DNA from: a phage | Assembly (NCBI GenBank): GCA_025812035.1 | Contig: GCA_025812035.1_4719.1 | Length of the DNA stretch: 64,000 nt | Reading direction: 5' to 3' (one strand) | Shown: positions 1 through 64,000 of the stretch, piece by piece | Numbering within the stretch: the first letter of the stretch is position 1 | How the letters are laid out: each line of letters starts with the position of its first letter | The notes under the pieces: model-generated | Database searches by the model: none | The model's input: the letters and a program-made list of their open reading frames with translations, nothing else | What the model was told of the DNA's origin: nothing | Translations under genes and position numbers: made by a program

Positions 1-1665
1 TGCCCAACCGGTTTGTTCCCAGCTACCAGACAGAACACGATCGATGATTTCGTGACGAGCGACAACACGCTGAGACATCGACATATCGGTACGGTCGAAG
101 CTGTCTTCCCATGCTTCTACGGTATCCGGGTTAGTGATGTTCATCATGTACAGATCGTCCATATCGCGAATATCGTGACGGTTACCATCCTGGTGGTTGT
201 AGTGACCCAGCGGGATACGGTTACCGGTAGCGTAGACCAGCGGTTGACCGTATTGATATTTCTTGCTGAAGCAGCCCAGGGTAGTATCATCGAAGGCACG
301 GAAGAGTGCTTTGTAACCTTCAGAGACTTCCCGAACATCAGCCTCAACATTACCCGTATAGATCTTCTCAGCCGCCGGGATCATACGCAACAGCCAGCTG
401 TATTCGCCTTCTTCCGGCACGTCGATAGAAATCAGCAGGGACGGATACAGTACCTGTTGCAGGAACTTGTAAATCTGCTCATTGGTTTGAGTAGACAGAT
501 CCAGCGGTGCGGTAACTTCCGGATCCAGCACCATCGCCAGAGCACCCGGGTTATGCGGACCGATACCACGAGCAGCGTTGCTGATTAAAGACTGCGCCCA
601 TGCCATGCCGCTGTTCAGCGTAGCAATGGTACCAATCAGACCCAATACAAAAGTATTCGGTGTGAATGCGTCCAGCTCCAGCGGGTAAGCGCTGGTCATC
701 ACGTAACGCGGCTGGTATTGTACAGTCGGCGGTACCGGATAACCGTTAACCAGAACAGGACCTTGGTTGAAGGTCGGGTTCTGCGGGCTGTAGGTCAGGT
801 CGATATAGCCGGTAGTTGCGACCAGACGCTGCTGGCTATCGTAATCGCTCATCGCTTGACGGATGCGGTTAGAGATAGTTACAGTGATGTCGGAACGCAC
901 TGGGTTACCAACGATATCGCTGTCCTGCATACCGCTGGTGTTATACTGAACGCTGCTGATCGGCTGATCGCTTGCCATCATGCCCAGGTTGAACTGCGGC
1001 AGGCCCAGTTTATCACCGAGACGGATTTCGATTGCGGTTTGGATTGCGTTATCTGCAGCAGACAGCAGGGTGGTTGCCAGGTGTGCAGATTCAGCGGTGA
1101 TTTCATTGGTCACCACAGCCAGACCAGCGATACGAACAGTACCATTAGCCTTGCCACCAATAGCCGCATACATTGCCGCCATGACTTCGTTGATGAACGT
1201 GCCGTTCAGGTTATCAACCCAGGTACGCGGTACCAGAATGTTACCATGCGGACCTTGTTCTTCACGACGCGGCAGCGGAGCCAAACCGGCAACCAGCGGA
1301 AGCACATAACCGAAGAAGTGGTTATGATCACCAACTTTCGCACCACTCATAACCACCAGGGTCGGATACGGTACACTGTACTGACCAGGATCGACAGTCA
1401 CCATGATGAAGTCGTCTTTAAAGCCTTTATCTTCCAGTTCTTTTTCCATCAGACGACGGAGGTTCAGTACTTGCTCAGAACCGGTGTTACGGCTAATACG
1501 ACGACTCAGTGTACGGTTGATCGTACGCATCGTATGAGTCACTTTAGGCTGGCCAGCAAAGTCTGCAGCGGTTTCCAGCGCTTCATCTGCACGTTGTGCG
1601 GTGCGGGTTTCAGCTGCACGAATTTCTACATTATCGTTACCGTTTTTACGTACGTCTAAGCCCAT
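1..1665 (-). CDS. Abundant protein, 3' end beyond window (555 codons visible); candidate chimallin-like nuclear shell protein, alternatively major capsid protein
   Basis: Open minus-strand frame from ATG at 1665 to window edge (checked at both ends and mid-gene); RBS AAGAGGAA; preferred-codon bias; early-promoter-like motif ~70 nt upstream. Missed by ORF track (no stop in window). Confidence 0.5.
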   Translation of the reverse strand, partial: MGLDVRKNGNDNVEIRAAETRTAQRADEALETAADFAGQPKVTHTMRTINRTLSRRISRNTGSEQVLNLRRLMEKELEDKGFKDDFIMVTVDPGQYSVPYPTLVVMSGAKVGDHNHFFGYVLPLVAGLAPLPRREEQGPHGNILVPRTWVDNLNGTFINEVMAAMYAAIGGKANGTVRIAGLAVVTNEITAESAHLATTLLSAADNAIQTAIEIRLGDKLGLPQFNLGMMASDQPISSVQYNTSGMQDSDIVGNPVRSDITVTISNRIRQAMSDYDSQQRLVATTGYIDLTYSPQNPTFNQGPVLVNGYPVPPTVQYQPRYVMTSAYPLELDAFTPNTFVLGLIGTIATLNSGMAWAQSLISNAARGIGPHNPGALAMVLDPEVTAPLDLSTQTNEQIYKFLQQVLYPSLLISIDVPEEGEYSWLLRMIPAAEKIYTGNVEADVREVSEGYKALFRAFDDTTLGCFSKKYQYGQPLVYATGNRIPLGHYNHQDGNRHDIRDMDDLYMMNITNPDTVEAWEDSFDRTDMSMSQRVVARHEIIDRVLSGSWEQTGWA

Positions 1666-1727
1666 TTGGGATTCCTCTTTTCTTAAACTTTATTAAATGA
1701 CGTCATTGAATCAGCTTCTACTCGCTC

Positions 1728-1809
1728 ATTCACCTAGGTAATATAACCCTGAAATTTTTTTCAATATTGGTGTAACCGTATTGAACGATATAAACCCCTA
1801 GGTGAATGC
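1728..1809. repeat. 12-bp perfect inverted repeat ATTCACCTAGGT ... ACCTAGGTGAAT flanking promoter motif A
   Basis: Arms at 1728-1739 and 1798-1809, 58-bp spacer. Confidence 0.4.
1735..1770 (-). promoter_or_regulatory. early-promoter-like motif, copy A
   Basis: Plus strand TAGGTAATATAACCCTGAAATTTTTTTCAATATTGG; minus-sense TATATTACCTA preceded by A-tract; ~70 nt upstream of the 1665 start. Confidence 0.4.
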
Positions 1810-1919
1810 TGCCGAGAAGCAACATTCTTTCTACATATAATCAGGATATGTCTGTAAACTTTTACTTCTCTTATTGAGAGTAACATCATATCCGCTTACT
1901 ACCTTCTTACGGAGTTCGT

Positions 1920-3014
1920 ATGTTTCGTGTTTTAAATAACCTCCCGCGAACATCATCGGGTGTGCAACCCATCCCTCAGAAAGACTATCTGATACGCGAA
2001 GTTCAAAGAAACCTACAAACAATCCAGAACCACTATCAGGGTTTTACCTTCGCGGTTCAGAGTGATCACATCCTTGCGTTGCTGCTCGCACAGCTCCCTA
2101 TGAGATACGACATCTCTGTACAAACTTACTACGACATGATTCTCGATCTTACACCAGAATTGGGTAATCGTGTTAAGTTGACAACATCGAGATACGCAGG
2201 TAAGTTATTCGACGGAGCTTTCTATCCGGGATTGCATGAAGCCATCATCGCAACCGGTGAAAGCCGTCTTATTTCACGGGATGTTCTTGACAACTGGCGT
2301 AATTGGTCACCGGTTAGAATCGTGACGCACCCGTACGCAAATCTTCGTTACATTCCTCTTCACCGAAAACAGGTTGAAGAAGGACGAGGTTTCGCGGTCA
2401 TCATGGTCGATGTACCTTTATTAGCATTACAGTATCGAATGTGGTCTTTGGTCATGGGCCATAACGTCGACGGTAAATGGGTGGTTAAAGAACCGGTTAC
2501 GAGCTTCCTTGCGAGTTTTCCATTGGTTAACGCATTATACTCACACAACGATGTTGTCATACGCAACCGTTGTTTGTGGGTACCTCCGGCTAAGAATCCA
2601 CTCAAGTCGCCGATTTACGTTAACGACCTGGATAACGTATTCAGTCAAGTCGTGCTGTCCGTACAACATCATTTATTACGAAGAAGACGAAGCTACACCG
2701 ACATGCTTAAACAGATACCGAGTTTATACGGGGATCAGTACCAAGCAACCCGAATGGGCTACACCGTCGATCTTCGACAAACCCGATGGGCAAGGGATCT
2801 AGGCTGTATGTCATTATGGCAGCAGCTCGTCACACTGCAAAACGTATCTGAAAGCGTCGGGTTCAGCAGTCAAATCGATAATGATCTGTACCGCGCCGCC
2901 GACCGGAGTCTGAAAGAAGGTAGCTGGGAATCCTCTCCGTTACCCGGCGATTTGCGGCGTGAAGTTATCGCACAGGTTGCCGACCTCTTAAAAATTCTTC
3001 CTGCTGGGACATAA
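1920..3014 (+). CDS. hypothetical protein
   Basis: 364-aa ORF, GGAG RBS before ATG 1920, followed by strong hairpin 3016-3070. Confidence 0.6.
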   Translation: MFRVLNNLPRTSSGVQPIPQKDYLIREVQRNLQTIQNHYQGFTFAVQSDHILALLLAQLPMRYDISVQTYYDMILDLTPELGNRVKLTTSRYAGKLFDGAFYPGLHEAIIATGESRLISRDVLDNWRNWSPVRIVTHPYANLRYIPLHRKQVEEGRGFAVIMVDVPLLALQYRMWSLVMGHNVDGKWVVKEPVTSFLASFPLVNALYSHNDVVIRNRCLWVPPAKNPLKSPIYVNDLDNVFSQVVLSVQHHLLRRRRSYTDMLKQIPSLYGDQYQATRMGYTVDLRQTRWARDLGCMSLWQQLVTLQNVSESVGFSSQIDNDLYRAADRSLKEGSWESSPLPGDLRREVIAQVADLLKILPAGT

Positions 3015-3015
3015 T

Positions 3016-3070
3016 CACCTCATCCCTTTCCTTGCATCCTCCCAACCCGTAAAGGGAAGGGAGGATGAGG
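3016..3070. terminator. bidirectional hairpin terminator (GTAA-capped family, copy 1)
   Basis: CATCCTCCC-AA-CCC-GTAAA-GGG-AA-GGGAGGATG between convergent genes. Confidence 0.5.
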
Positions 3071-3078
3071 GTATTATG

Positions 3079-5232
3079 TTACTCTGCGGCTTCTTGCTTC
3101 GGTAAATAACTTGCAGCGATATCTTGAGCTAACAATGTATTATTTTTATTCGAGATGAAAATACCGTAACTTTCCATCAACGCGTAATACGAACGAACAA
3201 GCGTAGAGATCAGTCGACGAATATCCATACCTTGAATAAAGATATCAGGAAGCCCGGAGGCTTCGATCACCGGTAATGGTATCGTTAAATTACTTATTGT
3301 TTTCTTATCGTTACGTACAATCCAATCGCGGAAACGTTGTTGTAACCCTTTATCCTCCCATGAATCAATCCAATCATTAAGAAGCGTTTTGTTCTTCGTC
3401 GCCAACGGCACACGAACCCCAACATAAGGAGGTTCGGAGCAATGGCCGTACGATTGAGCAAACACCTCTTCCCACATATCGTAAGACTGTTTCGTTACTG
3501 CAACATGTGGTTTCACTTTAACACGTGTTAAGAAATCGGGGTCACCTCGTTTCATTGACTCAACGATTTCGTTTTCTAACGAGATGATATCATCAAGAAC
3601 CAATCGAATACTGATCTTCTCGTTACGTAACAGCTTATCCATGATACCACACATCATCCGCTCAACACGTTGGACGATCATCTTCGGCGCTGATGCGTCG
3701 CGCATAACTGGGCCTTTCAATTCCAGCTTCGGTGGATTGATAGGAACCCCTTCACGCATGGTCATGTAACCGTAATAGTTTTTACCCATCGAGGTTAACG
3801 ACAGGATCAAGAACATATATTCGTTCTTCATTTCCATCACGTACATATGCTCTTTCGCCACACCGATATTACCAGAGCACATCGCCATCAGATGAACCGT
3901 GATCTGTGTAACCAGATAGATAAGCGTGTTGGCTAAGCGCGTCGAAACTGGATTGATCTCCATATTCCCAAATCGCCACTGAACCCACTCCTGACAGGTA
4001 AATACCGTTGAGTCGGTATCGGACAACACCCCCACTTCACGGATCGCTGATGGGAAAGCATAAACACCCGCCGGTTGGTTCTCGGTACGCCAGAACGCCA
4101 TAATCAAGTCAGCGTAACCTTGAATACGTTGCAACATTAATTTTGTCGTTGCTGCGGTAAGACGATAACCAAGTTCATTTCCTTTTTCTAGCGCGACGTA
4201 AATCGCTTCTCCATTCAAGAACTCCGTGCATTGTGCTGTAATCCATGCGACGGTGTTGTTATCCATGGAAGCAATAATGGCTTTAGCTTCTTCCATCGTT
4301 TCAACAGGTTCGGATGCCAGTTCACATAACGAGTCAAGAAAATGACGAACGAATTCAGGATTAAGCTCACGTAACGAGTACAGGTTATTGCTGTACATAT
4401 AGCAAGCGCGTTCCAACGGGGTTAAACCAGTGATTAGCTCCCGGATGACCAATTCTTTCTCTGGGTCGAAAGTGTACCGATGCAAGCATTTCGATACGTT
4501 AGCCCAAACCTCTTCCGGCGTAGGGTAATGCAGTTTGTATTTTACCATCACCTGCTCAATGGCGTTACGATCGCTATTGCGAACAATGCTTACGATGTTT
4601 TCAATTGCGATATCACAATCGTAATAATGGAAATTGCCTGCCAGGAAGCGTTCATTGTTCGCATTGGCCGAACCTGAAGCGCAGCGACATGTTGTTGTTA
4701 AACTCGGATGCGCAATCGGATTATAAAACGGATTAAACTTGGACGCCTGTGTTCCCGACAAACTGTTGTTATCTAACTTGGTGTTGGTTTGTCGTTTATC
4801 GTGTAGTTCAGCTTCGTCTTTACGTCCGTGTGCTTGTGCTATCGACATTTGTTTCTTTTGTTTCTTACGCAACTTACCGTTTTCAACCGCAAAGTCGCTT
4901 AGCACGCTGGAACGTGTCTCGCGTGGATAACAGTTAGCCCATACCGGCGTGATAATTAAATTATTTTCTTTAATATCGTTGAAATATTGACTGAACTTGA
5001 TGACTTCTTTTTCTCGATTTCCTTCGGTACGCTGTGTTAAAACAAGACAGTCGGGATCAACCATCCCGTATTTTCCGCCAGGACGTACCGTATCAAGAAC
5101 AAACTGCAGCGCTTCCTGCTGCGATATCCCACGCATGCGCATTAAGAACAGGGTATAATCCTGCACCGCTTCTTTGGTCATATCCAACGTACGACCGTAT
5201 CCGTTTTCATCGTAAAAGAACGGATTTTCCAT
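3079..5232 (-). CDS. putative RNA polymerase beta-prime-like C-terminal subunit
   Basis: 717 aa; SGSANANNERFLAG resembles beta-prime SGARGS..RQLAG motif; GLTPLE resembles bridge-helix region GLTPQE; GGAGGA RBS. Confidence 0.4.
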   Translation of the reverse strand: MENPFFYDENGYGRTLDMTKEAVQDYTLFLMRMRGISQQEALQFVLDTVRPGGKYGMVDPDCLVLTQRTEGNREKEVIKFSQYFNDIKENNLIITPVWANCYPRETRSSVLSDFAVENGKLRKKQKKQMSIAQAHGRKDEAELHDKRQTNTKLDNNSLSGTQASKFNPFYNPIAHPSLTTTCRCASGSANANNERFLAGNFHYYDCDIAIENIVSIVRNSDRNAIEQVMVKYKLHYPTPEEVWANVSKCLHRYTFDPEKELVIRELITGLTPLERACYMYSNNLYSLRELNPEFVRHFLDSLCELASEPVETMEEAKAIIASMDNNTVAWITAQCTEFLNGEAIYVALEKGNELGYRLTAATTKLMLQRIQGYADLIMAFWRTENQPAGVYAFPSAIREVGVLSDTDSTVFTCQEWVQWRFGNMEINPVSTRLANTLIYLVTQITVHLMAMCSGNIGVAKEHMYVMEMKNEYMFLILSLTSMGKNYYGYMTMREGVPINPPKLELKGPVMRDASAPKMIVQRVERMMCGIMDKLLRNEKISIRLVLDDIISLENEIVESMKRGDPDFLTRVKVKPHVAVTKQSYDMWEEVFAQSYGHCSEPPYVGVRVPLATKNKTLLNDWIDSWEDKGLQQRFRDWIVRNDKKTISNLTIPLPVIEASGLPDIFIQGMDIRRLISTLVRSYYALMESYGIFISNKNNTLLAQDIAASYLPKQEAAE

Positions 5233-5293
5233 AAATCCTCCAAAAGTTATTTAGACTGTCTACATCATCTCGTATATCTGTTAAAAAAGAAGG

Positions 5294-5334
5294 ACGGCAT
5301 AAAAAGAACCGATCCAGCCGAAGCCAGATCGGTT
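5294..5334 (-). terminator. hairpin plus U-tract with TATGCCGT module
   Basis: Stem AACCGATC/GATCGGTT; minus-sense followed by CTTTTTATGCCGT. Confidence 0.5.
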
Positions 5335-5530
5335 TAAATGGATAATAACTGACAGAAAGATATCGATGATGTTCGTGAAACAAGATCTTCTCTCGTGTAC
5401 ATTGATGCCAGATCAGAGGGAGGTTGTAGCACGAGAGGTGGTTCGCCAAAGAAGGAATAAACACGCGAACCTATCTTAGTTTCACTGATGGCACTAACCA
5501 CTCAAAATATATAGTACTGTATGTAAAAGT

Positions 5531-5944
5531 TTACTGATTAATCAAGTCGTTAGCAACGATCTTGGTGTAACCTGCTTGATTGAGAATTTGATTAATTTTC
5601 GTCACGTCGGTCGCATCCTCAATAATGATGCTGGGTTTATAGATCAACGTCTTAGTAACGATGATTGTACTCTCCTTAATCCAAGGAATCCCTAAAATTA
5701 CATACTCGCCATCCGCAGTGATGACCTCAACGTAGTTGTACTTCGTCGGATCGTTCGGTACACTAGATGGGAGTCGGGAATAAATCTGTTGATGTATAGC
5801 GTCTACATCGCGGCCGTTGCGTACAGCCGTACGATAGTTGTATACGGCACTAATTTCTACTCCGTTGAAGTTAACCCCAAGTTCTGAAGCGTACACGTCA
5901 AAACTCACAACAGAGCCAATCTTTTCTAAATCAGAAGCTGGCAT
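5531..5944 (-). CDS. hypothetical protein
   Basis: 137-aa ORF, weak RBS. Confidence 0.45.
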   Translation of the reverse strand: MPASDLEKIGSVVSFDVYASELGVNFNGVEISAVYNYRTAVRNGRDVDAIHQQIYSRLPSSVPNDPTKYNYVEVITADGEYVILGIPWIKESTIIVTKTLIYKPSIIIEDATDVTKINQILNQAGYTKIVANDLINQ

Positions 5945-5959
5945 AATAGCACCCTTTAT

Positions 5960-6355
5960 TTAAAAAATGTATTCATATCCGAAAGCCGTCGCTGACCAAA
6001 CTCGGATAGATGATAGTGTTCCGCCACGATAAAACGTTTTTGTGAACTCCATATCCTGGACAACACGATAATAGACACGTCCGATGATACGTACAATAAG
6101 GTATCGCGGTAACGATCGCTCCTCGCAGTACTCATCGATAAAGTCATCGTCGATATCCGATAAGACAACATCTGCGATTTCTTGCAGTAGGTTCCTCATC
6201 AGCATCTGCCTTCCTTCGGTACCCCATCCAGACAAACAGTAATCATCTTCTGCCTGACTATAGATGTCGTTAACCGCCTGTTCGAGCAGCTGCTCAAGAT
6301 AGTAGTCATCGCGTTTTATAACGTGGCGACGGCGCTCAATGGCGTATTTTTCCAT
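5960..6355 (-). CDS. hypothetical protein
   Basis: 131-aa ORF in minus-strand operon. Confidence 0.45.
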   Translation of the reverse strand: MEKYAIERRRHVIKRDDYYLEQLLEQAVNDIYSQAEDDYCLSGWGTEGRQMLMRNLLQEIADVVLSDIDDDFIDEYCEERSLPRYLIVRIIGRVYYRVVQDMEFTKTFYRGGTLSSIRVWSATAFGYEYIF

Positions 6356-6804
6356 CCTGTGTTTCTCTTGTTTGGCGTATGTATTAACGACGCCACAGTC
6401 TTATCTGGATCGTCCCACAACGCACGACGAAAACTGGATACTACCATAACGGTAGGATAGATTTGCACAACCTCCCACCCGTAACGATGCGCGTTAGTCG
6501 TACGTCCGACATTAAACAAACATAGCTGATTTAAGAAACAAAGCTGCATCTTCGTAAACAACATGGTATCTTCGCGTTTAACGTATCCGAGAATATAAGC
6601 ATTCTCGAACGCCTCACGCGACAAGACGGGACGATTAAGATACCGCAACGCTAACACCAGCAACGTCGTTATACGCAACGGATCTTCCGGGTCATTCATG
6701 CTGTTCAGCTCAGCTTGTAACCAGTCAGGAATAGTAACCGTCAGACGATAGGTATCTGTTCCGCGATCAACCACATTCAACGTTGAAAAAGGCAACATAT
6801 CCAT
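6316..6804 (-). CDS. hypothetical protein
   Basis: 162-aa ORF, GAAGGAA RBS before ATG 6804. Confidence 0.45.
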   Translation of the reverse strand: MDMLPFSTLNVVDRGTDTYRLTVTIPDWLQAELNSMNDPEDPLRITTLLVLALRYLNRPVLSREAFENAYILGYVKREDTMLFTKMQLCFLNQLCLFNVGRTTNAHRYGWEVVQIYPTVMVVSSFRRALWDDPDKTVASLIHTPNKRNTGWKNTPLSAVATL

Positions 6805-8918: not shown

Positions 8919-9009
8919 ACTCTTTTCCTAAGTCCCCATTGTTTATACACACGATATCTGGGAATAGTTAAAATATACGGCGTATAGCGAAACAGGAGAG
9001 TTTCTGACG

Positions 9010-9330
9010 TCATTTTCTCCCTCTTCGAATACCACCGATACCTCTTCGATCCAAGACGTCCCATGCACGTTTTATTTCATCCTCCGTTGCTCTGGTATCT
9101 GGAGGGACAACCATAACACAATCGTGGAATGGCCAGTGCGTCGGTCTAGGGTCAGCAAATAGATTATCCCATTCAAGCGTCCATGATTGCTTTGAACGAT
9201 TATAGTAGATCGTAAGGTACGTATTAGTGTACGCTGGGTAACCACGCATAACTTCAACATCTTTACGATCCTGCCGTTCCTGATTCCAATCGTTAAATCG
9301 TTTTCTTATTTTATCCCATCGCTTTCCCAT
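9010..9330 (-). CDS. hypothetical protein
   Basis: Start trimmed to ATG 9330 with AGGAGA RBS; 106 aa. Confidence 0.45.
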   Translation of the reverse strand: MGKRWDKIRKRFNDWNQERQDRKDVEVMRGYPAYTNTYLTIYYNRSKQSWTLEWDNLFADPRPTHWPFHDCVMVVPPDTRATEDEIKRAWDVLDRRGIGGIRRGRK

Positions 9331-17863: not shown

Positions 17864-17892
17864 CCTCCTCTGGGAATGGAACCCAGAGGAGG
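17864..17892. terminator. bidirectional hairpin CCTCCTCTGGG-AATGGAA-CCCAGAGGAGG
   Basis: 11-bp perfect stem between convergent genes. Confidence 0.5.
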
Positions 17893-28988: not shown

Positions 28989-29041
28989 TCCCTCCTTCCC
29001 TAGCCATCAAGGCCGGGGAAGGAGGGTTTATAGTTTATTTA
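28989..29041 (+). terminator. strong rho-independent terminator after tube-candidate gene
   Basis: Stem CCCTCCTTCCC/GGGAAGGAGGG, then TTTATAGTTTATTTA; preceded by A10 run 28969-28978. Confidence 0.6.
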
Positions 29042-40328: not shown

Positions 40329-41975
40329 TTAGGCTCCACGAGGTCCCGTTAAGTTGCGTAATAGGAACGCAACCGTATCGTAACCAATATCGATGTTGAA
40401 TTTATTTTTACCACTTACCCAGAAAGCACGTTTCTTGTGCGAGTTGGTAATTTCGTCAATGGCTTCCATGGAATAAAGAACGTTAACCGAGACCGTATCG
40501 CCATCAAAGTCCCCACCAAGTCCGGCGAGGTACGGGGCTGGAACAATAGTCGTTTCTACGAACGAAGCATTAGGTAACCAATCTGGGTATTCCCATGCGA
40601 TAAATCGCTCATCCGTTATTGGTTCCCAGTTACTATCCAGTTCGGTTTTCGGTTTTGCTGCAACGGTCGTACGCGCATAACAGGTTAACGGAATGACGGA
40701 TTGCATACCCGATACCGGATAACGTGTTACCATCGCTGCCAGGTTATTCCAGTATTTATATCCAGCAATATAGATAAGCTCAGTATACGTAATGGGGTGA
40801 ACATCCGCCCCGGGTTTGTTAAGCATCTCTGGGGGTAATTCACTCATACCACGGAATAACCGAAACGAATCATTATTCACATAGACCAGGCAGAGATAAC
40901 GTCCATTGACCATGATAGGTTCGTTACGCACACCTGGATCGCTTAAGGTGTTCAGTAAACGTTCTATCCCATCCCATGTTGTAAAGTCATCGATGGTGTC
41001 TGGATCAAGCGTGACGCGTTCACGTTCCATCGTTTCGGTATCAATAAGTTCAACTTCTGTAACATCACGGACAAATATTTCCTGCAAAATCCCCGTACGT
41101 AACGCATGTTGCGTTACTGGGAGAGCAGCTTTACTCATCTGGTATAACCCTAACTGAACTGCAGTACAGGAAGGCTGGTTAGGCGACCCTAGTACCTCCG
41201 TTGTGGGGTTAATTGCTGAAATAACGTTACGGGTTGAGTTCCAAACACGACGTGAGCCGAACTTACCTTGGAAGATCCCTTTCTTACCTTGGAACATATC
41301 CAACAACAAAGCGTAGATGTCGTTAAATGTTCTCTGTAAGCTCCAGCGCTGACCGTCGTAAACGGGATCCGAATAATCTTTTAATCCATCCGGGACGGTG
41401 TTAGAAATTGCCAGGAAACGACGATACAACTCTGTGATTTCTTGCTCGCTTTCATACCCGCCTTCTTTTACTTCTATTTCACGTAAACCCGCAGGTAAAA
41501 CCAGTAGATGACGAGTCATCGCTTTGAACATGTTCTCTTCGACAACCTTGATTCGTAGCTCTCGTTGAGCTGAACCCGTTGAAACGAACTTGATATCAGC
41601 GACGTGTTGTGCAAAGAACCCGTATCCTGTTTGTCCTGTTAGCGCATCGGACGCAACGAAGTCACGTTGTTCAGGATCCCAACGCGCGTACGCCTTCCCC
41701 GACATGATATCACCGTAGAGGTGTTTTAGTCGAATGAGACGATCGTAGATGACAGGGTGTAGGATTTCAACTTTGCATTCAATCACCGCAAATCGACGGT
41801 CTCGATCTTCGCTACCCGCACTACCAAAGATGGTGTATGAATAGAAACCGTCATCGTGGAAATTACCGGTGCTTGGATCACGAATGCTCATGCTCGTGAT
41901 CTTGGGGAGAAAACGTAACTGCTGTTTATCGAGGTGTAAAATGCTAATATTAAACGGCTCTCTGACTTTAGCCAT
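40329..41975 (-). CDS. multisubunit RNA polymerase beta-prime-like N-terminal subunit
   Basis: Start trimmed to ATG 41975 (AAAGAGGAG RBS); RRFAVIECKVEILHPVIY resembles beta-prime RMGHIELAAPVAHIWF; GKFGSRRV...NVISAIN resembles [27 protein letters not shown] catalytic motif near C-terminus. Confidence 0.65.
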   Translation of the reverse strand: MAKVREPFNISILHLDKQQLRFLPKITSMSIRDPSTGNFHDDGFYSYTIFGSAGSEDRDRRFAVIECKVEILHPVIYDRLIRLKHLYGDIMSGKAYARWDPEQRDFVASDALTGQTGYGFFAQHVADIKFVSTGSAQRELRIKVVEENMFKAMTRHLLVLPAGLREIEVKEGGYESEQEITELYRRFLAISNTVPDGLKDYSDPVYDGQRWSLQRTFNDIYALLLDMFQGKKGIFQGKFGSRRVWNSTRNVISAINPTTEVLGSPNQPSCTAVQLGLYQMSKAALPVTQHALRTGILQEIFVRDVTEVELIDTETMERERVTLDPDTIDDFTTWDGIERLLNTLSDPGVRNEPIMVNGRYLCLVYVNNDSFRLFRGMSELPPEMLNKPGADVHPITYTELIYIAGYKYWNNLAAMVTRYPVSGMQSVIPLTCYARTTVAAKPKTELDSNWEPITDERFIAWEYPDWLPNASFVETTIVPAPYLAGLGGDFDGDTVSVNVLYSMEAIDEITNSHKKRAFWVSGKNKFNIDIGYDTVAFLLRNLTGPRGA

Positions 41976-42217
41976 GGAGACACTCCTCTTTACCACCACC
42001 GGCGGCGGTATCATCTGAACACACGAGAGACGTAATGGGTGATGGCGTCACCCATCGCTTCCTTGCTTGAGGCGAGGAAGTTATTAGGTTACGTACCTGT
42101 TTGATAAAATCAAACAGGCGATGTGTGAAGTTACGCTTCAACATTATCAATGCCGAAGGTAAACTTCGTGCATCACGTTCCAACGTAACATGGGAACGTA
42201 TCGAACTGGAGGTATAC

Positions 42218-48932: not shown

Positions 48933-51074
48933 ATGGGTATTCTTGTTCAAAACGCCCTAATCACCAAACAGGCGTTTTTATTACCAGGCGATAGCAGCAC
49001 GCTTAGTGCCGACATGATTAAAGCGAGACATACACCGTATTCCTACGATAACGTCGATGATACCACCTTAGGTGGGAACTGGGTGCTTAACCCACCACCG
49101 CAATATACAAAATTTGCTGATATCAAGGAACGACGGCGTGCGGTTATGCCGGGGTCAACGGGTATGGGTCGCGGCTACAGTGAAAGCATTAACAGCTTTA
49201 AAGAAGTCGTTACGTTACGATTCGGTAAACCTCGCTTTACAGGCGCAAGTATCTTCTTCACTGATTTCTACGATGCGGATGTTGCTGTAACGGTTAAAAC
49301 AGGCCGCGATCCTGGTATTCTTTATTACGCAGCCAAAGCGTATACGACCGTTCTTTCTTACCTCACACCCCTACCTTACTTGTATATGGTTGGACGTATC
49401 GGTCGATATTTCCTGGGTAAGCCTACCAGTCAATATTACTATCAAGTACCAACCATGCATGTGTATTGGGCGTCTTTCCAGACGCTGGTAAACCAAACAG
49501 CGATGAACATGGGCCTTATCGCTGGTGCAGGTAAAGATAAAGGTTACGTGGAAGAAGGAGGTACCGTACTCCACCAATATTCAATCGGTGGTCAGGATGT
49601 TAAAGAATTCCTCAATTACGCCTCTAAGACGTTACCGGGGATTTATAAGAAAGGCGGTGGGATCGATATCTACCAGATTGCGACACGACGTCAGCGTATA
49701 CAGAACGCGTGGGTACGTCGTATTCAATCCATGATGGAAAACGATTACTCGTCTTACGAGGAGTTCTGGAACGATCTTGATAAACGACTTGATAGCGGAG
49801 CATTTCCATCGGATGTTACCGGTCGTACGCTAACGCAGTATCTTGCCGACACACAGAAGTCTGCTGTTTACAGCGCGACAGCGGGTGATAATAAACAAAC
49901 GATGGACGACCTTTTATTCGGAAGAGCTTCATACACCAATAAAGATGCTGATGCCAACTTCAAAGTTTCAGCGGCTACCTCCGATGGTGGCACATCAGCG
50001 CAAAGCCAGGGTACCACAGCCAACGTAGGTAACTCAACATCAGGAACAACGCAAGCGTCGACAGCAGCGTCAACGGCTGGAGGTGCGAACGTACAGAGCA
50101 AAGGAATCGGGCAAACGAACGCCGCCGAAGAAGCTACGTTTCTTGATCTGATGGATGCTGAATTGGCTGACGGTGCTCAGTTTATCAGTTTTCGAGTCGA
50201 CTCTGTCACCAGCGTAACCGAAACGTTTTCAAACAGCGCTTCAGAAAGTTCGATCGCACAGACGATGAATAGCCGCGCGCAGGCGAACATCGAACGTCGT
50301 TTCACTCTTTCAGGTGGCAATACTGGATGGGCTGTACTGGACGAAGCAATCAAAGCCGGTTCCGATCTCGTTAACGGTGCTATTTCCGGGATGGGTCTGG
50401 ACGGTATTTTTGGTGCCTTCATGGGTTCCGGTTTTGCAGACATTCCGAAATTCTATTCTGGATCGTCGGTTAGTCTTCCACGTGCAGATCTGACGATGGA
50501 ATTACGTTCCTGGAGTGGGGATCGCTGGTCGATCTTTACAAACCTCATGGTACCTCTTTTAGCCATTCTTGCAGGTGGTTTACCTCAGGCTACCGGTAAA
50601 TCGTCCTACGGGATGCCATTCATGTGCGAATGTTATATTCCTGGTAAAGTCCAGATTAAAATGGGCCTTATCGACAATATCACCGTAACGCGCCATGTTG
50701 GTAACGTACCTTCAACACGTGAACGGTTACCATTAGGTATCGACGTCAGCTTCAGCGTTTATGACCTCTCGTCTATCGTCGCAATGCCGATCACGACGAC
50801 AGCCGCATCGATTGCAAAATTAGATCCTCGTGGCTTCTTAAGTGATCTTCTTGCTGACGATACGCCACTCAACAACTATCTTGCTGTGTTATCGGCATTG
50901 ACACTTACGGAACAAGTTTACATGATTCCTGATTTAAGTCGTCGCATGCATAAAACCATGGCCGATATCGATAGTTTCTGGAGTAAAGGTAATTTTGCTA
51001 GCTGGTTGTCTGACACCATGCCTGGCAGGATAGCATCAGGGCTGTTATGGAAACGTACAGAACGACCGTTCTGA
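48933..51074 (+). CDS. hypothetical protein (possible virion protein)
   Basis: 713 aa, GAGGAA RBS, co-oriented downstream of giant gene, followed by hairpin. Confidence 0.55.
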   Translation: MGILVQNALITKQAFLLPGDSSTLSADMIKARHTPYSYDNVDDTTLGGNWVLNPPPQYTKFADIKERRRAVMPGSTGMGRGYSESINSFKEVVTLRFGKPRFTGASIFFTDFYDADVAVTVKTGRDPGILYYAAKAYTTVLSYLTPLPYLYMVGRIGRYFLGKPTSQYYYQVPTMHVYWASFQTLVNQTAMNMGLIAGAGKDKGYVEEGGTVLHQYSIGGQDVKEFLNYASKTLPGIYKKGGGIDIYQIATRRQRIQNAWVRRIQSMMENDYSSYEEFWNDLDKRLDSGAFPSDVTGRTLTQYLADTQKSAVYSATAGDNKQTMDDLLFGRASYTNKDADANFKVSAATSDGGTSAQSQGTTANVGNSTSGTTQASTAASTAGGANVQSKGIGQTNAAEEATFLDLMDAELADGAQFISFRVDSVTSVTETFSNSASESSIAQTMNSRAQANIERRFTLSGGNTGWAVLDEAIKAGSDLVNGAISGMGLDGIFGAFMGSGFADIPKFYSGSSVSLPRADLTMELRSWSGDRWSIFTNLMVPLLAILAGGLPQATGKSSYGMPFMCECYIPGKVQIKMGLIDNITVTRHVGNVPSTRERLPLGIDVSFSVYDLSSIVAMPITTTAASIAKLDPRGFLSDLLADDTPLNNYLAVLSALTLTEQVYMIPDLSRRMHKTMADIDSFWSKGNFASWLSDTMPGRIASGLLWKRTERPF

Positions 51075-51089
51075 TATTCACCGCATAAA

Positions 51090-51122
51090 CCCCTCTCCCA
51101 ACCCGTAAGGGAAGGGAGAGGG
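51090..51122. terminator. bidirectional hairpin terminator (GTAA-capped family, copy 2)
   Basis: CCCTCTCCC-AA-CCC-GTAA-GGG-AA-GGGAGAGGG between convergent genes. Confidence 0.5.
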
Positions 51123-51128
51123 AATATG

Positions 51129-52196
51129 TTAACCTAACGTCACCGTCGGTAAATCAGGATAAAGTTTCTTCAATCCCGCCATCGTGGTGGTAGTTGTGTA
51201 ATTCTTACCCATCACAGCGAGAGATGCGTATTTCTTGCTGCGTGAGAAAAGGGAATAGAATCCACTGGATGTTTCCATCCACATCGTGAGGAGTTCTGCA
51301 TCTTTACCGTGATAGTTCGTTTTCCCCCATCCGGGTTTAAACGCGTCAGCAAAATCAATTAAACGCGATGCTTCAGTGTCGTATTCTTTAAGGGCAACAT
51401 ACGGCGGGATACGGTAGTTACGAAACAGCAACGTAATGAGTTCGGGAACAACGCTACGGGCACGTTCAGCAGTAATGAGTTCGGTGATAACAGCAGCCGT
51501 ACGGAAATCGCCGTTAAGACCAACACTGCTTAACGATTCCGCTAAAGTGGTTGCCATCGCTACTTTATCCTCCGCTGACCCAGAGTCGTACAAACTACGT
51601 ACATCGATATAATTGCCTGCTAATGCGGCTTGTCGAATCAGCGACGTGACAACCGTCCGGTTCGTCTTATAGTCGTTGTAGCTGAATTCGGTTCGCGTTT
51701 TCCCTTGATCGTCGAGATACCGGTCAACAATCGTAGACAGTTTATAATACTCATCGCCCGACATCAGACTGTCGAGAAGTTTAACGTTTCCATCTTTATC
51801 GATAAGCTTCCCTAGCGCACCATTGGATTGCTGGTTAATGGTACTGTATATCTGATCTTTTACTTGCGATAAGATGTTATCCGTCGACGATATATTCAGA
51901 CCTGTGACATCTTTGATCTTATTCATCAACGCGTTTTCATTCAGGGAGATTTTACCTCCGCTGATATCGATGAAAGCGTTAAGATCGCTTATGGAAATCA
52001 GGTTTCCTGTTAGTGCCGATAACGTACTATTGATACTGTTCGTAATACTGCTACGAAAACTGGTTAACGCATCCGCAGCTGAAACAGCGGTACCGCTAAC
52101 CGCTTTAAGGAGCGTATCACGCCCTGTCGAAAAATCGCTGGTGATGGTTTTGATCTTGGACGTATCTATACTCGGCAGTTTGTCGTAAAGACTCAT
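51129..52196 (-). CDS. Ser/Thr-rich hypothetical protein
   Basis: Start trimmed to ATG 52196 (AGGAGGA RBS); terminator/TATGCCGT module upstream. Confidence 0.5.
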   Translation of the reverse strand: MSLYDKLPSIDTSKIKTITSDFSTGRDTLLKAVSGTAVSAADALTSFRSSITNSINSTLSALTGNLISISDLNAFIDISGGKISLNENALMNKIKDVTGLNISSTDNILSQVKDQIYSTINQQSNGALGKLIDKDGNVKLLDSLMSGDEYYKLSTIVDRYLDDQGKTRTEFSYNDYKTNRTVVTSLIRQAALAGNYIDVRSLYDSGSAEDKVAMATTLAESLSSVGLNGDFRTAAVITELITAERARSVVPELITLLFRNYRIPPYVALKEYDTEASRLIDFADAFKPGWGKTNYHGKDAELLTMWMETSSGFYSLFSRSKKYASLAVMGKNYTTTTTMAGLKKLYPDLPTVTLG

Positions 52197-52226
52197 CACG
52201 TCCTCCTGAAAAAGAAAAAAAGAAAT

Positions 52227-52263
52227 ACGGCATAAAGCCTACCCACACAATGGTGGGTAGGCT
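52227..52263 (-). terminator. hairpin plus U-tract with TATGCCGT module
   Basis: Stem GCCTACCCAC/GTGGGTAGGC; minus-sense followed by CTTTATGCCGTATTTCTTTTTTTC. Confidence 0.55.
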
Positions 52264-61978: not shown

Positions 61979-63319
61979 ATGATTAGTATTTTTGGTTTTT
62001 ATACGTACAAAGGGTACGCTAATAACCACCCAAAAACCACGGCGAAATTCGGTGAGTTCAGTCAGCACAGTGCTACGTTCAGTCGCGAGATCGGCATCTA
62101 TACCAACACGGCGTACGAACGTACGACCTTATTAGTGTTGAATGCAGAAAACGAAGCTGGTGAGGCACAAACGCTGAATGACGACACCGCAGGCCGCATT
62201 CTTCAGGTTGGTCAATGGTTACTGGAAAAAGCCTCAGCAGGCGAAATCCAAGATGACCGAGACCAAGTTATTGGCTACCTAAAAGACGACTTCACAACGT
62301 ATTTGGATTCTATCGACATCCCAACACCCACCACCGACGGGAAAGTCTATCTACCGGCGTGGATCAGTTTCAAGATAACAGCCACCGGCGATGTTGTCAA
62401 GATTTGGTTGTCTGATAGCGTATTCCAAAGTCAATATCCAAAATACGAATATGAAGTCGTTCCTCCTGTTCCTAAGGATCAGTTAGACACCTTCTTCGAA
62501 GATCTGGTAACATTAAAGAAACTGGTTGACAGTCGAAGTAGCGAGAAACTGACCGAAGAAATCAATGAGGTGCGCGACCAATTCCCAGACACACAATTGT
62601 GGACGAAAACCTATAAAGCGTACGATTACACCGACGATTCGAAATACATCGATACCGATTGGACGGTGATTATCTACGGTGCAGCAGGTAACAACATTGA
62701 TAATATCAAGGAGTTCCTGCAAAACTGGATTCTTAGCAACAGCACGCACGGACGTCCAGACTGGGAGATCGTTTTACCGGATCTTTTTATTCCGACAGAA
62801 CACATCTTCATCCCAATCTGGAACCGCCACAGTGCTCCAGAGATGACCAATCAGGCACGTATTTATAGTCCTATCTTCGATGATTCGTTGATGGATACCT
62901 ACCTGAAAAACTTTGCTGATGGTTACGGCGCAGTTGCTGAAGTCCGTAAATCGCTTCAAGCCGTGCCAACGTTATGGCGCTCGATCGGTTTCTTAAGTGT
63001 TGGTAACTTACGTAACCGCGACGGTAAACTTAAGTTCTACGACCGCTGGCCGCAATACGCGCTCATCAGCACAACCAGCATTGATATTAACCGTATCGAT
63101 GACGCGACACGTGAATTTATCACCTTCACTTACGAAATGCTGAAACTGGCTGAATCGCTCACCGAAGACGATCCGGTACCGTTGGGCTATAGTCGTGTCA
63201 CACGTGGCAACAACAGCTTCTTAGCAAAAAGCCACAACGATGTTCAGTATCTCTTCTTAACAAAAGAAGCGTTCCTGAAGAAAATGCCGGATGAAGCCGA
63301 CACGCCTGTTGGAGGTTGA
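61979..63319 (+). CDS. hypothetical protein
   Basis: Start trimmed to ATG 61979 (GAGGA RBS 6 nt upstream). Confidence 0.55.
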   Translation: MISIFGFYTYKGYANNHPKTTAKFGEFSQHSATFSREIGIYTNTAYERTTLLVLNAENEAGEAQTLNDDTAGRILQVGQWLLEKASAGEIQDDRDQVIGYLKDDFTTYLDSIDIPTPTTDGKVYLPAWISFKITATGDVVKIWLSDSVFQSQYPKYEYEVVPPVPKDQLDTFFEDLVTLKKLVDSRSSEKLTEEINEVRDQFPDTQLWTKTYKAYDYTDDSKYIDTDWTVIIYGAAGNNIDNIKEFLQNWILSNSTHGRPDWEIVLPDLFIPTEHIFIPIWNRHSAPEMTNQARIYSPIFDDSLMDTYLKNFADGYGAVAEVRKSLQAVPTLWRSIGFLSVGNLRNRDGKLKFYDRWPQYALISTTSIDINRIDDATREFITFTYEMLKLAESLTEDDPVPLGYSRVTRGNNSFLAKSHNDVQYLFLTKEAFLKKMPDEADTPVGG

Positions 63320-63321
63320 TT

Positions 63322-63948
63322 ATGGCTGTAACACGTATGACGCCAAGTCCCGGTGCTGTCGGGGTATTCACAGTATCAGCGCCGTTCTCTGTTGGTGCGT
63401 CAACGCTATATACCGTTACAGCGTTGCGAAGATTCAGTGAAGTCATCGGCAGTGGAATCGATCTATTTACGGAACTGTACGAACCGCTATCGATAGACAA
63501 ATCCACTTTCGAAGCACATCTTGAAGCGAATGCTTATCTCGTCACTTTGCAACCGGATTACGGCGCGCCTGTACTGGTACCTGACACGTATATCACGTCG
63601 TACCCAAAGAACGATTCCTTGCGGTATCGTCGCATTATTCTGGGTATCGATTTCGGACCTCTTCCTCCAGGTCTTGACCTTTCGTATTTAACAACGATAT
63701 TGAAAGGTAAAGCCAGTGATATTCTTGGTGTCGAACCTGAAGTTAAAATAATGGAAATCACTGTCGATGATACCGTTACTCAGGAACAGCACCAGATAAA
63801 CGAAGCTCGTCGTCAGGCTGCGATAAAAGAGCGAGATACCATTTACGCACGCTGTGAAACGCAAGAGAAGCAGATAACGGCTTTGCTTGCAACCCAAAAG
63901 CAACTTATCAAGTTGCTTCAAGACGCCGGTATCAATCCGACACCTTAA
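63322..63948 (+). CDS. hypothetical protein
   Basis: ATG 63322 with GGAGG RBS; followed by hairpin. Confidence 0.5.
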   Translation: MAVTRMTPSPGAVGVFTVSAPFSVGASTLYTVTALRRFSEVIGSGIDLFTELYEPLSIDKSTFEAHLEANAYLVTLQPDYGAPVLVPDTYITSYPKNDSLRYRRIILGIDFGPLPPGLDLSYLTTILKGKASDILGVEPEVKIMEITVDDTVTQEQHQINEARRQAAIKERDTIYARCETQEKQITALLATQKQLIKLLQDAGINPTP

Positions 63949-63954
63949 CATATT

Positions 63955-63986
63955 CCCTCCTCCTTCCCTTACGGGTTGGAGGAGGG
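63955..63986. terminator. hairpin terminator (GTAA-capped family, copy 3, opposite orientation)
   Basis: CCCTCCTCC-TT-CCC-TTAC-GGG-TT-GGAGGAGGG after gene 63322-63948. Confidence 0.45.
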
Positions 63987-64000
63987 TTATGCTGTCAAGC

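What the first reader, a model, noticed from the sequence alone, without database searches (positions are those of the whole stretch)
3016..3070. Three near-identical GTAA-capped hairpins with conserved 2x2 A.A internal loop
3035-3067, 51090-51122 and 63955-63986 (reverse orientation) share the architecture CCCTCC-AA-CCC-GTAA-GGG-AA-GGAGGG: a 9-bp GC stem, A.A internal loop, 3-bp stem and GNRA-type tetraloop. This goes beyond what a generic terminator needs and suggests a dedicated structured RNA element, perhaps a protein-binding or RNA-stability signal.
Basis: seen in the sequence. Interest (0 to 1): 0.55.

Follow-up and report, generated by a model that had tools for sequence, protein, structure and literature searches.

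The report
Two-way phage transcription terminator hairpins
The three hairpins are real members of a 15-copy family in Goslar-like jumbo phages that most likely stop transcription from both directions between genes; this is a local variant of a terminator already described in phage phiKZ, so it is fairly ordinary.

Summary
The three hairpins exist as described, with small corrections: site 1 has a 5-nt GTAAA loop, and the stems differ by compensated changes. The window is a ~94% relative of the nucleus-forming E. coli jumbo phage Goslar. Goslar has 15 copies. All lie 4-31 nt after stop codons, and 10 sit at the genome's 20 convergent gene junctions. All three window copies are at convergent junctions.

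Read on the other strand, the element is CATATT-CCCTCCTCC-UU-CCC-UUAC-GGG-UU-GGAGGAGGG-UUAUGCUGU. That matches the published phiKZ/201phi2-1 intrinsic-terminator design (pyrimidine arm, loop, purine arm, TTATKYYGT), with an added apical module. The arms are perfectly complementary with compensatory changes and no G.U pairs, and the flanks are inverted copies (CATA...TATG). The module can therefore act on both strands.

The "A.A internal loop plus GNRA loop" is not fixed to a transcript. The core is inverted between near-identical genomes at 10 of 15 sites, and 45% of loops are not GNRA.

Best reading: a bidirectional factor-independent terminator, as a lineage-specific variant of a known kind. 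The invariant 2x2 mismatch and CCC/GGG mini-stem remain unexplained. No 3'-end data exist for Goslar.

The parts
3035..3067 (.). Family copy 1 (orthologue of Goslar site N, between gp245 and the DNA polymerase gene gp244). 9-bp stem CATCCTCCC/GGGAGGATG, 2x2 AA/AA mismatch, CCC/GGG, loop GTAAA.
   Evidence: 47.4 bits. Convergent ORFs 1920..3014(+) and 3079..5232(-).
3010..3034 (.). Left flank of copy 1: CATAAT (3010-3015, containing the TAA stop of the + gene at 3012-3014) plus an atypical 19-nt spacer (3016-3034). The spacer can form an alternative outer helix, CCTCATCC 3018-3025 with GGATGAGG 3063-3070.
   Evidence: The spacer is absent from the orthologue in metagenome locus L420.
3068..3081 (.). 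Right flank of copy 1: AGGGT-ATTATG (TATG at 3075-3078), then TTA (3079-3081), the stop codon of the - strand DNA polymerase gene.
51084..51128 (.). Family copy 2 with flanks (Goslar site O, between gp203 and gp202): CATAA(51084-51088)-AC-stem 51091-51099, core, stem 51114-51122, AA-TATG (51125-51128). On the - strand it reads TAA-CATATT-hairpin-GTTTATGCGGT.
   Evidence: (66.2 bits)
63949..63995 (.). Family copy 3 with flanks (Goslar site A, between gp187 and gp001 across the record ends): CATATT (63949-63954, directly after the TAA stop at 63946-63948), hairpin 63955-63986, tail TTATGCTGT (63987-63995), which matches the phiKZ tail consensus TTATKYYGT exactly.
   Evidence: (66.0 bits)
17864..17892 (.). 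Related terminator-type hairpin, same class but not the strict family: CATAG-CCTCCTCTGGG-aatggaa-CCCAGAGGAGG-ACTATG, at the gp224/gp223 convergent junction.
28990..29026 (.). Related two-tier hairpin of a second subfamily (CCCTCCTTCCC-tagccatcaaggccg-GGGAAGGAGGG) at the gp217/gp216 convergent junction.
   Evidence: 24.6 bits
59318..59353 (.). Related two-tier hairpin (CCCACCCTAC-ta-CCC-cgttaa-GGG-cg-GTAGGGTGGG) at the gp192/gp191 convergent junction. Its orthologue is annotated as a 'putative transcriptional terminator' in Goslar.
52236..52263 (-). Related simple hairpin after gp202, followed on the - strand by TTATGCCGT (an exact phiKZ-type tail).

Best explanation
Each hairpin is a compact (~45 bp), palindromic, factor-independent transcription terminator that works in both directions. 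It is the Goslar-lineage version of the conserved chimallivirus (phiKZ-type) terminator.

Proposed mechanism:
1. A phage RNA polymerase (or the host enzyme) passes the stop codon and transcribes the element.
2. The CCC/GGG mini-helix nucleates folding.
3. The 9-bp pyrimidine/purine helix zips up to within 1-5 nt of a U/A-only stretch that ends in UAUG.
4. The hairpin plus the weak UUAU hybrid releases the RNA a few nucleotides downstream.

The arms are perfectly Watson-Crick complementary and the flanks are inverted copies (CATA...TATG). A polymerase arriving on the opposite strand therefore meets the same signal, so one module closes two convergent transcription units and blocks antisense read-through.

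Shown here: the structure, covariation, copy number, position after stop codons, enrichment at convergent junctions, the TATG tail and its link to gene direction, and the similarity to mapped phiKZ terminators.

Inferred: that RNA 3' ends form here in Goslar-like phages; the release mechanism; and that the conserved 2x2 mismatch serves to add stability (about -5 to -7 kcal/mol over a plain 9-bp hairpin) without creating a long perfect palindrome or duplex.
For: 1. Identity of the genome: the window is 94% identical to and collinear with Goslar, a chimallivirus.

2. Census: exactly 15 sites in Goslar and 3 in the window score 41-67 bits with the family model. The next hits are at or below 26 bits.

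3. Position: all 15 lie 4-31 nt after a stop codon. Ten occupy 10 of the 20 convergent junctions against 5 of the 227 other junctions, Fisher p = 2e-9.

4. Structure: 99.4% of cells are paired, 6 of 9 outer pairs show double compensatory changes, and there is no G.U state. This fits a hairpin needed on both strands.

5. Tail: TATG lies within 12 nt of 41 of 118 strong-hairpin ends in Goslar against a 2.4% background, p = 1e-35.
   - Within the family it is present on 22 of 25 tails that face an upstream gene but on only 1 of 5 that do not, p = 0.006.
   - The tail often extends to TATGYYGT.

6. Published match: phiKZ ONT-cappable-seq terminators have the consensus BCCYCCCC-HWWD-GGGRRGG-BYTTATKYYGT, with overlapping bidirectional terminators at convergent genes (PMC10914365). 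The same motif occurs in 201phi2-1, where eight of that phage's mapped terminators (chosen to span its motif types) terminate strongly in vivo (PMC11512511).

7. Direct comparison: phiKZ instances read CATAAT-GCCCTCCC-GCAA-TGGGAGGGC-TTATGCTGT, and the Goslar-built model hits phiKZ intergenic terminators at 15-23 bits. A Serratia Moabitevirus has the same design.

8. Goslar's depositors annotated two family copies (27746-27777 and 93445-93476) as putative terminators.

9. The ATG in the tail is not a start codon; the ORFs it opens are mostly 2-23 aa.
Against: - No RNA 3'-end mapping exists for Goslar or its relatives, so termination is inferred by analogy.
- The tail has only three U residues, so this is not a canonical U-tract.
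- Site 1, the finding's own coordinates, has no TTATG directly after the stem. It lies 7 nt away on the + strand and about 20 nt away on the - strand.
- The absolute invariance of the AA/AA (or UU/UU) mismatch and of CCC/GGG in every copy is not required by a simple terminator model.
- Perfect arm complementarity could partly reflect mechanical palindrome correction or gene conversion rather than selection. Stem-type swaps at orthologous sites point to conversion.
Confidence: 0.75

Rival explanations
1. The hairpins are RNA 3'-end processing or stability elements rather than sites of polymerase release. Long read-through transcripts would be cut (for example by host RNase III at the interrupted helix) or trimmed back by 3' exonucleases to the hairpin, which then protects the upstream mRNA.
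For: - Very stable hairpins sit directly after stop codons.
- The helix is interrupted by a 2x2 internal loop, as in phage T7 RNase III sites (own knowledge).
- With the outer CAUA/UAUG pairs the stack reaches about 16-18 layers.
- The tail is U-poor.
Against: - The conserved TATGYYGT tail, and its dependence on the presence of an upstream gene, are not explained by a pure exonuclease barrier.
- The homologous-looking phiKZ elements were classed as intrinsic terminators, and eight mapped terminators from 201phi2-1, which carries the same motif, terminate in reporter assays.
- The 9+3 bp helix is short for RNase III.
- This rival is not mutually exclusive with termination.
Confidence: 0.12
2. 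The invariant apical module (2x2 mismatch, CCC/GGG, R..A loop) would be a binding site for a dedicated phage protein that acts on mRNA 3' ends, for example in stability, export from the phage nucleus or translation. The analogy is the histone mRNA stem-loop and its binding protein SLBP.
For: - The mismatch and mini-stem are invariant in all 40 distinct instances while the outer stem varies.
- The first and last loop positions are constrained, to R...A or U...Y.
- Other hairpin subfamilies in the genome also place an internal loop and a 3-bp mini-stem at the same height.
Against: - The core flips between A.A/GNNA and U.U/UNNY forms at 10 of 15 orthologous sites without loss of the element. A given transcript therefore does not keep one form.
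- The two central loop positions are hypervariable.
- phiKZ and Moabitevirus terminators lack the module.
- The only chimallivirus RNA-binding protein studied by eCLIP (ChmC) binds near start codons with no motif (PMC11077065).
Confidence: 0.07
3. The flanking TATG motifs are late promoters of the phage non-virion RNA polymerase (phiKZ consensus TATG, with G as the start site). The hairpin would be an insulator between divergently firing promoters.
For: - TATG is the phiKZ late-promoter core (PMC4666361).
- TATG flanks most hairpins.
Against: - At the 10 convergent sites a start at either TATG would only make antisense RNA to the neighbouring gene.
- TATG is kept on strands with an upstream gene and decays where there is none. 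This is the pattern expected of a terminator tail, not of a promoter for a downstream gene.
- The conserved extension YYGT is a terminator feature in phiKZ, whereas late promoters show no conservation downstream of TATG.
Confidence: 0.04
4. The element is a selfish or DNA-level palindromic repeat. It could be REP/MITE-like, a cruciform, or a site for a DNA-binding protein. It would spread or be homogenised by recombination, with no RNA-level role.
For: - It is a multi-copy imperfect palindrome.
- The core inverts frequently.
- Stem types are swapped at orthologous sites, and in one relative an extra gene carries its own copy.
- There are no G.U pairs.
Against: - The 15 sites are orthologous in every genome where the region was recovered, always 4-31 nt after stop codons and never inside genes.
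- The conserved tail depends on strand and gene direction.
- Palindrome-correcting mutation would erase the 2x2 mismatch, yet it is invariant.
- No target-site duplications were seen in the flanks.
Confidence: 0.04

Closest known systems
Conserved intrinsic terminator motif of phiKZ (5'-BCCYCCCCHWWDGGGRRGGBYTTATKYYGT-3'; Putzeys et al. 2024, PMC10914365) and of 201phi2-1 (motif A and A/B; PMC11512511)
   Same: - Pyrimidine-rich 5' arm and purine-rich 3' arm, followed by TTAT(G)YYGT.
- Located just after stop codons.
- Palindromic, overlapping bidirectional versions at convergent genes, with CATAA upstream.
- Window site 3 and phiKZ 25205(-) share the identical tail TTATGCTGT.
- The Goslar-built model detects phiKZ terminators.
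   Different: - phiKZ has a 7-8 bp stem closed directly by a 4-nt loop.
- The Goslar family has a 9-bp stem, an invariant 2x2 mismatch, a CCC/GGG mini-stem and a variable loop (a 14-nt apical module).
- Spacing to TTAT is 0-4 nt rather than 2.
- No mapped 3' ends exist for Goslar.
Canonical bacterial Rho-independent terminators, including bidirectional ones at convergent genes (own knowledge)
   Same: A GC-rich hairpin directly after a gene, and one palindromic hairpin serving both strands. Unrelated viral contigs carry CC-UU-CCC-loop-GGG-UU-GG hairpins followed by U-runs.
   Different: There is no 6-8 nt U-tract, only UUAUG with a conserved G. The host-type consensus scan did not report the three copies (one search covered site 1 only).
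E. coli REP/BIME extragenic palindromes (own knowledge)
   Same: Multi-copy imperfect palindromes of about 35-45 nt in 3' intergenic regions, often between convergent genes, found in both orientations, and linked to mRNA stabilisation or termination.
   Different: - The copies here are at fixed orthologous positions.
- They carry a polymerase-specific tail.
- They are phage-encoded.
- No associated transposase is evident, although this was not searched for.
Phage T7 RNase III processing hairpins (own knowledge)
   Same: Intergenic phage hairpins with an internal loop interrupting the helix, which leave a protective 3' stem-loop.
   Different: T7 sites have about 20 bp or more with asymmetric loops and lie within co-directional polycistronic RNA. 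Here the helix is 9+3 bp, mostly at convergent junctions, with a conserved downstream tail.
Small hairpin-loop inversions flanked by short inverted repeats in plastid genomes (e.g. PMC6824564, PMC12928735)
   Same: Recurrent, homoplasious inversion of the non-palindromic centre of a hairpin between close relatives, while the arms stay unchanged.
   Different: A different biological system. The parallel concerns only the mutational process, not the function.

Membership tests
phiKZ-type (chimallivirus) conserved intrinsic terminator | Stem with a pyrimidine-rich 5' arm (CCYCCCC) and a purine-rich 3' arm (GGGRRGG) | tested here: met
   All 40 distinct instances have a Y-only 5' arm apart from A in the CATCC type, and an R-rich 3' arm.
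phiKZ-type (chimallivirus) conserved intrinsic terminator | Hairpin followed by TTAT(K)(YYGT) | tested here: met
   Window sites 2 and 3 read GTTTATGCGGT and TTATGCTGT. 23 of 30 Goslar family tails have TATG at a spacing of 1-5 nt. Site 1 is an exception, with TATG 7 and about 20 nt away.
phiKZ-type (chimallivirus) conserved intrinsic terminator | Short 7-bp stem closed directly by a 4-nt HWWD loop | tested here: not met
   The family has a 9-bp stem plus a 14-nt apical module made of a 2x2 mismatch, CCC/GGG and a loop. It is therefore a variant and does not match the published consensus over its full length.
phiKZ-type (chimallivirus) conserved intrinsic terminator | Intergenic, just downstream of stop codons, and bidirectional at convergent gene pairs | tested here: met
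   The copies lie 4-31 nt after stop codons. 10 of 15 are at convergent junctions, p = 2e-9.
phiKZ-type (chimallivirus) conserved intrinsic terminator | Coincides with experimentally mapped transcript 3' ends and a drop in read-through | not testable with these tools
   No Goslar 3'-end data were found. The phiKZ supplement is not held.
phiKZ-type (chimallivirus) conserved intrinsic terminator | Reciprocal recognition by a sequence/structure model | tested here: inconclusive
   Model R1 hits phiKZ intergenic terminators at 15-23 bits (E 2.5e-5 to 1e-2) and Moabitevirus ones at 19-26 bits. This is far below the family scores of 41-67 bits.
Canonical Rho-independent terminator | GC-rich hairpin immediately followed by a U-tract of about 6-8 nt | tested here: not met
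   The hairpin is present, but the tail is UUAUG or AAUAUG with at most 3-5 U. Only Goslar site F has a T-run.
GNRA tetraloop hairpin | A 4-nt loop G-N-R-A conserved across members | tested here: not met
   In the AA reading, GTAA (20) and GTGA (2) give 22 of 40 instances. The rest are GTCA, ATCA, AACA, AGCA or 5-nt loops. Window site 1 is GTAAA. The loop is on the opposite strand after core inversion.
Any Rfam family | Match at or above the gathering score | tested here: not met
   There are 0 matches in the whole window at gathering thresholds. The best permissive hit at site 2 is 16.8 bits against a gathering score of 50.
RNase III processing site | About two helical turns of dsRNA, and cleavage by RNase III | not testable with these tools
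   The helix is 9+3 bp plus 3-4 weak outer pairs. Cleavage cannot be assessed in silico.
REP/MITE-like mobile palindrome | Presence/absence polymorphism at insertion sites between close relatives | tested here: not met
   All 15 sites are occupied wherever the region was recovered in the relatives (8-9 further genomes, each sampled only in part). The one extra copy arrives together with an extra ~470-nt segment.

The most novel reading that the evidence does not exclude
The terminator tail and the late promoter may share one recognition code. [quoted passage not shown] That capture would pause the enzyme at the right distance for the hairpin to release it. The palindromic CATA-hairpin-TATG module would then be a polymerase-specific, U-tract-independent, two-way stop signal. 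Its invariant interrupted apical module and its flip-flop inversion would be tuned to that enzyme, or to a partner protein in the phage nucleus.
Probability: 0.2. Interest if true: 0.6.

Novelty: new variant of a known kind. Interest (0 to 1): 0.3.

Why it matters
The finding gives Goslar-like E. coli jumbo phages, a main model for the phage nucleus, a genome-wide map of likely transcription-unit ends. No transcript-boundary data were found for them.

It extends the phiKZ terminator code across chimallivirus genera.

It also supplies a compact 45-bp candidate two-way terminator for engineering.

The conserved G of the TATG tail, the invariant 2x2 mismatch and the frequent core inversions are concrete handles for testing how the unusual phage RNA polymerases terminate. 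As a kind of element it is nevertheless expected rather than surprising.

Tried and rejected
- Rfam: nothing at gathering thresholds in the window, and only noise at permissive thresholds around site 2.
The same loose pattern in viral contigs needed tightening.
- Start codon or Shine-Dalgarno idea: the 3' arm GGAGG followed by ATG looks like a ribosome-binding site plus start codon. The ATG opens ORFs of only 2-23 aa at most sites, so I rejected it as a general role. The exception is Goslar gp047, whose annotated start is that ATG.
- TATG as a promoter: rejected as the main role because of the convergent context and the dependence on gene direction.
- Mapped phiKZ 3'-end coordinates: the supplement is not held.
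- Literature on Goslar promoters, terminators or 3'-end mapping: none found. The ChmC eCLIP study gives no 3'-hairpin motif.
- The host-type terminator scan (run on window 1-20000 only, so only site 1 was covered) does not list the family, because its loop limit is 8 nt.
- I did not transcribe the full Goslar CDS table into a script. Junction counts were made by hand.

Full report
**1. What is in the sequence**

The three hairpins are present:
- Site 1, 3035-3067: CATCCTCCC-AA-CCC-GTAAA-GGG-AA-GGGAGGATG.
- Site 2, 51091-51122: CCCTCTCCC-AA-CCC-GTAA-GGG-AA-GGGAGAGGG.
- Site 3, 63955-63986 on the reverse strand: CCCTCCTCC-AA-CCC-GTAA-GGG-AA-GGAGGAGGG.

Site 1 therefore has a pentaloop, and the three outer stems differ at several pairs, each difference compensated.

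The 18-nt core with up to 3 mismatches occurs three times against 0.02 expected. Either strand folds into the two-tier hairpin at -26.5 to -29.3 kcal/mol, z = -4.2 to -7.5.

The TAA/TTA inside or next to them is the stop codon of a neighbouring gene.

**2. Context**

The window is 94% identical to and collinear with Escherichia phage Goslar (NC_048170), a nucleus-forming chimallivirus. It covers Goslar 171,234-237,291.

The three sites lie between convergent genes:
- Site 1: ORFs 1920..3014(+) and 3079..5232(-), corresponding to gp245 and the DNA polymerase gp244.
- Site 2: ORFs 48933..51074(+) and 51129..52199(-), corresponding to gp203 and gp202.
- Site 3: ORF 63316..63948(+), corresponding to gp187, and gp001(-) across the record ends.

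Contiguity across the Goslar record ends is confirmed in locus L027.

**3. Genome-wide family**

I fetched the whole Goslar genome and found 15 sites, labelled A-O. A covariance model built from 40 distinct instances scores exactly these 15 plus the 3 window copies at 41-67 bits. The next hits, at or below 26 bits, are other hairpins at gene junctions.

All 15 sites lie 4-31 nt after a stop codon. Ten occupy 10 of the 20 convergent junctions of the genome, five are at co-directional junctions, and none is at a divergent junction. Fisher p = 2e-9 (counts by hand; test).

The same sites are occupied in two IMG/VR contigs (237.5 and 182.9 kb) and in at least five further Goslar-sized metagenome contigs.

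**4. Structure is selected**

On the 40-sequence alignment:
- 99.4% of cells form Watson-Crick pairs.
- 6 of the 9 outer-stem pairs show changes on both sides.
- There is not one G.U state.
- Slid-partner and shuffle controls are far lower.

The absence of G.U is what a hairpin needed on both strands would show, since G.U on one strand is C.A on the other. Palindrome-correcting mutation or gene conversion could contribute as well. At sites K and N, orthologues in different genomes carry different stem types, which looks like cassette replacement.

The two inner stem pairs, the 2x2 mismatch and CCC/GGG are invariant.

**5. Which strand, and is it a GNRA/A.A motif?**

Read on the other strand, the consensus is CATATT-CCCTCCTCC-TT-CCC-TTAC-GGG-TT-GGAGGAGGG-TTATG(CYGT). 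At 13 of 15 Goslar sites this U.U/UUAC form is on the strand that carries the hairpin-TTATG form (the strand of the gene ending nearest, and the main coding strand).

The asymmetric centre is not fixed. With identical flanks, the core AACCCGTAAGGGAA is replaced by its reverse complement TTCCCTTACGGGTT in one or more relatives at 10 of 15 sites. This includes the orthologues of all three window sites.

The loop is hypervariable between genomes that differ by about 5% overall. In the AA reading the counts are GTAA 20, AACA 6, GTCA 4, ATCA 3, GTGA 2, AGCA 2, plus three 5-nt loops. Only 55% are GNRA.

So the A.A-plus-GNRA description is one of two interchangeable faces of a palindromic module. It is not a conserved feature of a given transcript.

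**6. What it matches**

ONT-cappable-seq of phiKZ defined a conserved intrinsic-terminator motif, 5'-BCCYCCCCHWWDGGGRRGGBYTTATKYYGT-3'. It has a pyrimidine arm, a loop, a purine arm and then TTAT. That study also reported overlapping bidirectional terminators at convergent genes (PMC10914365).

The same motif occurs in 201phi2-1. That study reports 132 termination sites, 15 of them bidirectional, motif combinations that elongate the hairpin, and eight of its mapped terminators (chosen to span the motif types) validated in vivo (PMC11512511).

Window site 3 ends GGAGGAGGG-TTATGCTGT and site 2 ends GGGAGAGGG-GTTTATGCGGT, which fit that tail. In the first 50 kb of phiKZ I found, for example, CATAAT-GCCCTCCC-GCAA-TGGGAGGGC-TTATGCTGT at a convergent junction, and a palindromic pair at 34908/34918. 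The upstream CATA is therefore shared too.

The Goslar-built model picks up phiKZ intergenic terminators at 15-23 bits. A Serratia Moabitevirus has TGA-CATAT-CCCTCCTCCTACC-ttaacg-GGTAGGAGGAGG-TTTAT. Goslar's depositors annotated two family copies as putative terminators.

**7. The tail**

In Goslar, TATG lies within 12 nt of 41 of 118 ends of strong hairpins against a 2.4% background, p = 1e-35. The window shows 11 of 34, p = 1e-10.

Within the family, TATG is present on 22 of 25 tails that face an upstream gene but on only 1 of 5 that do not. There it has decayed to TATT or TATA. p = 0.006.

The ATG is not a start codon. The ORFs it opens are mostly 2-23 aa; gp047 is the one annotated exception.

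[quoted passage not shown] At convergent junctions a promoter would only make antisense RNA. The YYGT extension is also terminator-specific. I therefore read TATG here as part of the stop signal. Whether the polymerase's promoter pocket reads it as a pause signal is an untested inference, given as the novel case.

**8. The apical module**

Predicted free energies:

| Form | kcal/mol |
|---|---|
| Natural U.U form | -27.9 |
| A.A form | -25.9 |
| Hypothetical fully paired stem | -32.5 |
| phiKZ-style 9-bp hairpin without the module | -20.7 |

Other hairpin subfamilies in the genome place a different internal loop and a 3-bp mini-stem at the same height. Examples are window 28990-29026 and 59318-59353, and Goslar 146607 and 83251.

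My inference is that the module adds stability and a folding nucleus while avoiding a long perfect palindrome or duplex. A specific protein partner cannot be excluded, but the flips argue against one.

**9. Site 1 is atypical**

Site 1 keeps the CATAAT...ATTATG flanks, which pair in the minimum-free-energy fold of the + strand in both the window and Goslar. It has a 19-nt spacer at 3016-3034, so TTATG is 7 nt away on the + strand and about 20 nt away on the - strand. One metagenomic relative (L420) has a compact canonical copy at this site.

**10. Verdict**

The element is a real, selected, multi-copy structured element. Its most probable function is bidirectional factor-independent transcription termination. 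It is a Goslar-lineage variant of the known chimallivirus terminator, not a new class of RNA.

The main gap is the lack of 3'-end mapping for these phages. The invariant 2x2 mismatch, the conserved G of the tail and the flip-flop of the core are the unexplained and mildly interesting parts.

Noticed in passing
window 40508-40510 (ORF 40329..42014, - strand): The window lacks, cleanly, the 2,045 bp that in Goslar (211754-213798) hold a group I intron and an HNH/ORF179-like homing endonuclease gene interrupting an RNA polymerase subunit gene. The window has an uninterrupted 561-aa ORF across the junction, and Rfam finds no intron there.
   Followed up: partly
window 28990-29026; Goslar 11186-11220, 200229-200265, 84366-84396: A second repeated two-tier hairpin subfamily (CCCTCCTTCCC-tagccgtcaaggccg-GGGAAGGAGGG) occurs at other gene junctions. 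The copy at Goslar 84366 has its inner part inverted.
   Followed up: partly
window 31611-31638 vs Goslar 202853-202880: A fully paired 12-bp hairpin (ACCTCCTTACCC/GGGTAAGGAGGT) has loop ACAT in the window and ATGT in Goslar. This is a loop inversion at an orthologous site.
   Followed up: no
window 63987-64000; Goslar record positions 1-55 and 237253-237307: The Goslar record starts inside the site-A hairpin and ends just after it with a run of 16 A, so its ends overlap by about 55 nt, probably an assembly break at the palindrome. The window ends 14 nt after the same hairpin, so it appears to be the last 64 kb of a record in the same frame.
   Followed up: no
Goslar 14972-15825 (L001): A stretch of about 850 nt has no annotated gene. 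It lies between gp021 and gp022, next to family site C (15778-15809).
   Followed up: no
L056 3828-4344 (IMGVR_UViG_3300011560_000001): This Goslar relative has an extra ~470-nt segment followed by its own family terminator, inserted between the gp076 and gp075 equivalents. It looks like a gene-plus-terminator cassette.
   Followed up: partly
Goslar 93445-93476 (site K) and 174267-174298 (site N) vs relatives (L071, L077, L420): Orthologous sites carry different stem types and loops in genomes about 94% identical. Examples are CCCTCTCCC/AGCA against CCCTCCTCC/GTAA, and a compact CCTCCTCC copy at site N in L420. This points to replacement or gene conversion between family copies.
   Followed up: partly
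Goslar 49770-49772 (gp047 start): The annotated start codon of gp047 is the ATG of the terminator tail TTATG directly after family site G, and the hairpin's 3' arm GGGAGAGGG sits where a ribosome-binding site would. Either the start is mis-annotated or termination and translation initiation overlap here.
   Followed up: no
many loci (e.g. L118, L024, L036, L013, L222): Unrelated viral and bacterial contigs contain hairpins with the same CC-UU-CCC-loop-GGG-UU-GG core followed by a classical U-run. Tandem U.U mismatches near the top of terminator hairpins are therefore not unique to this phage group.
   Followed up: no
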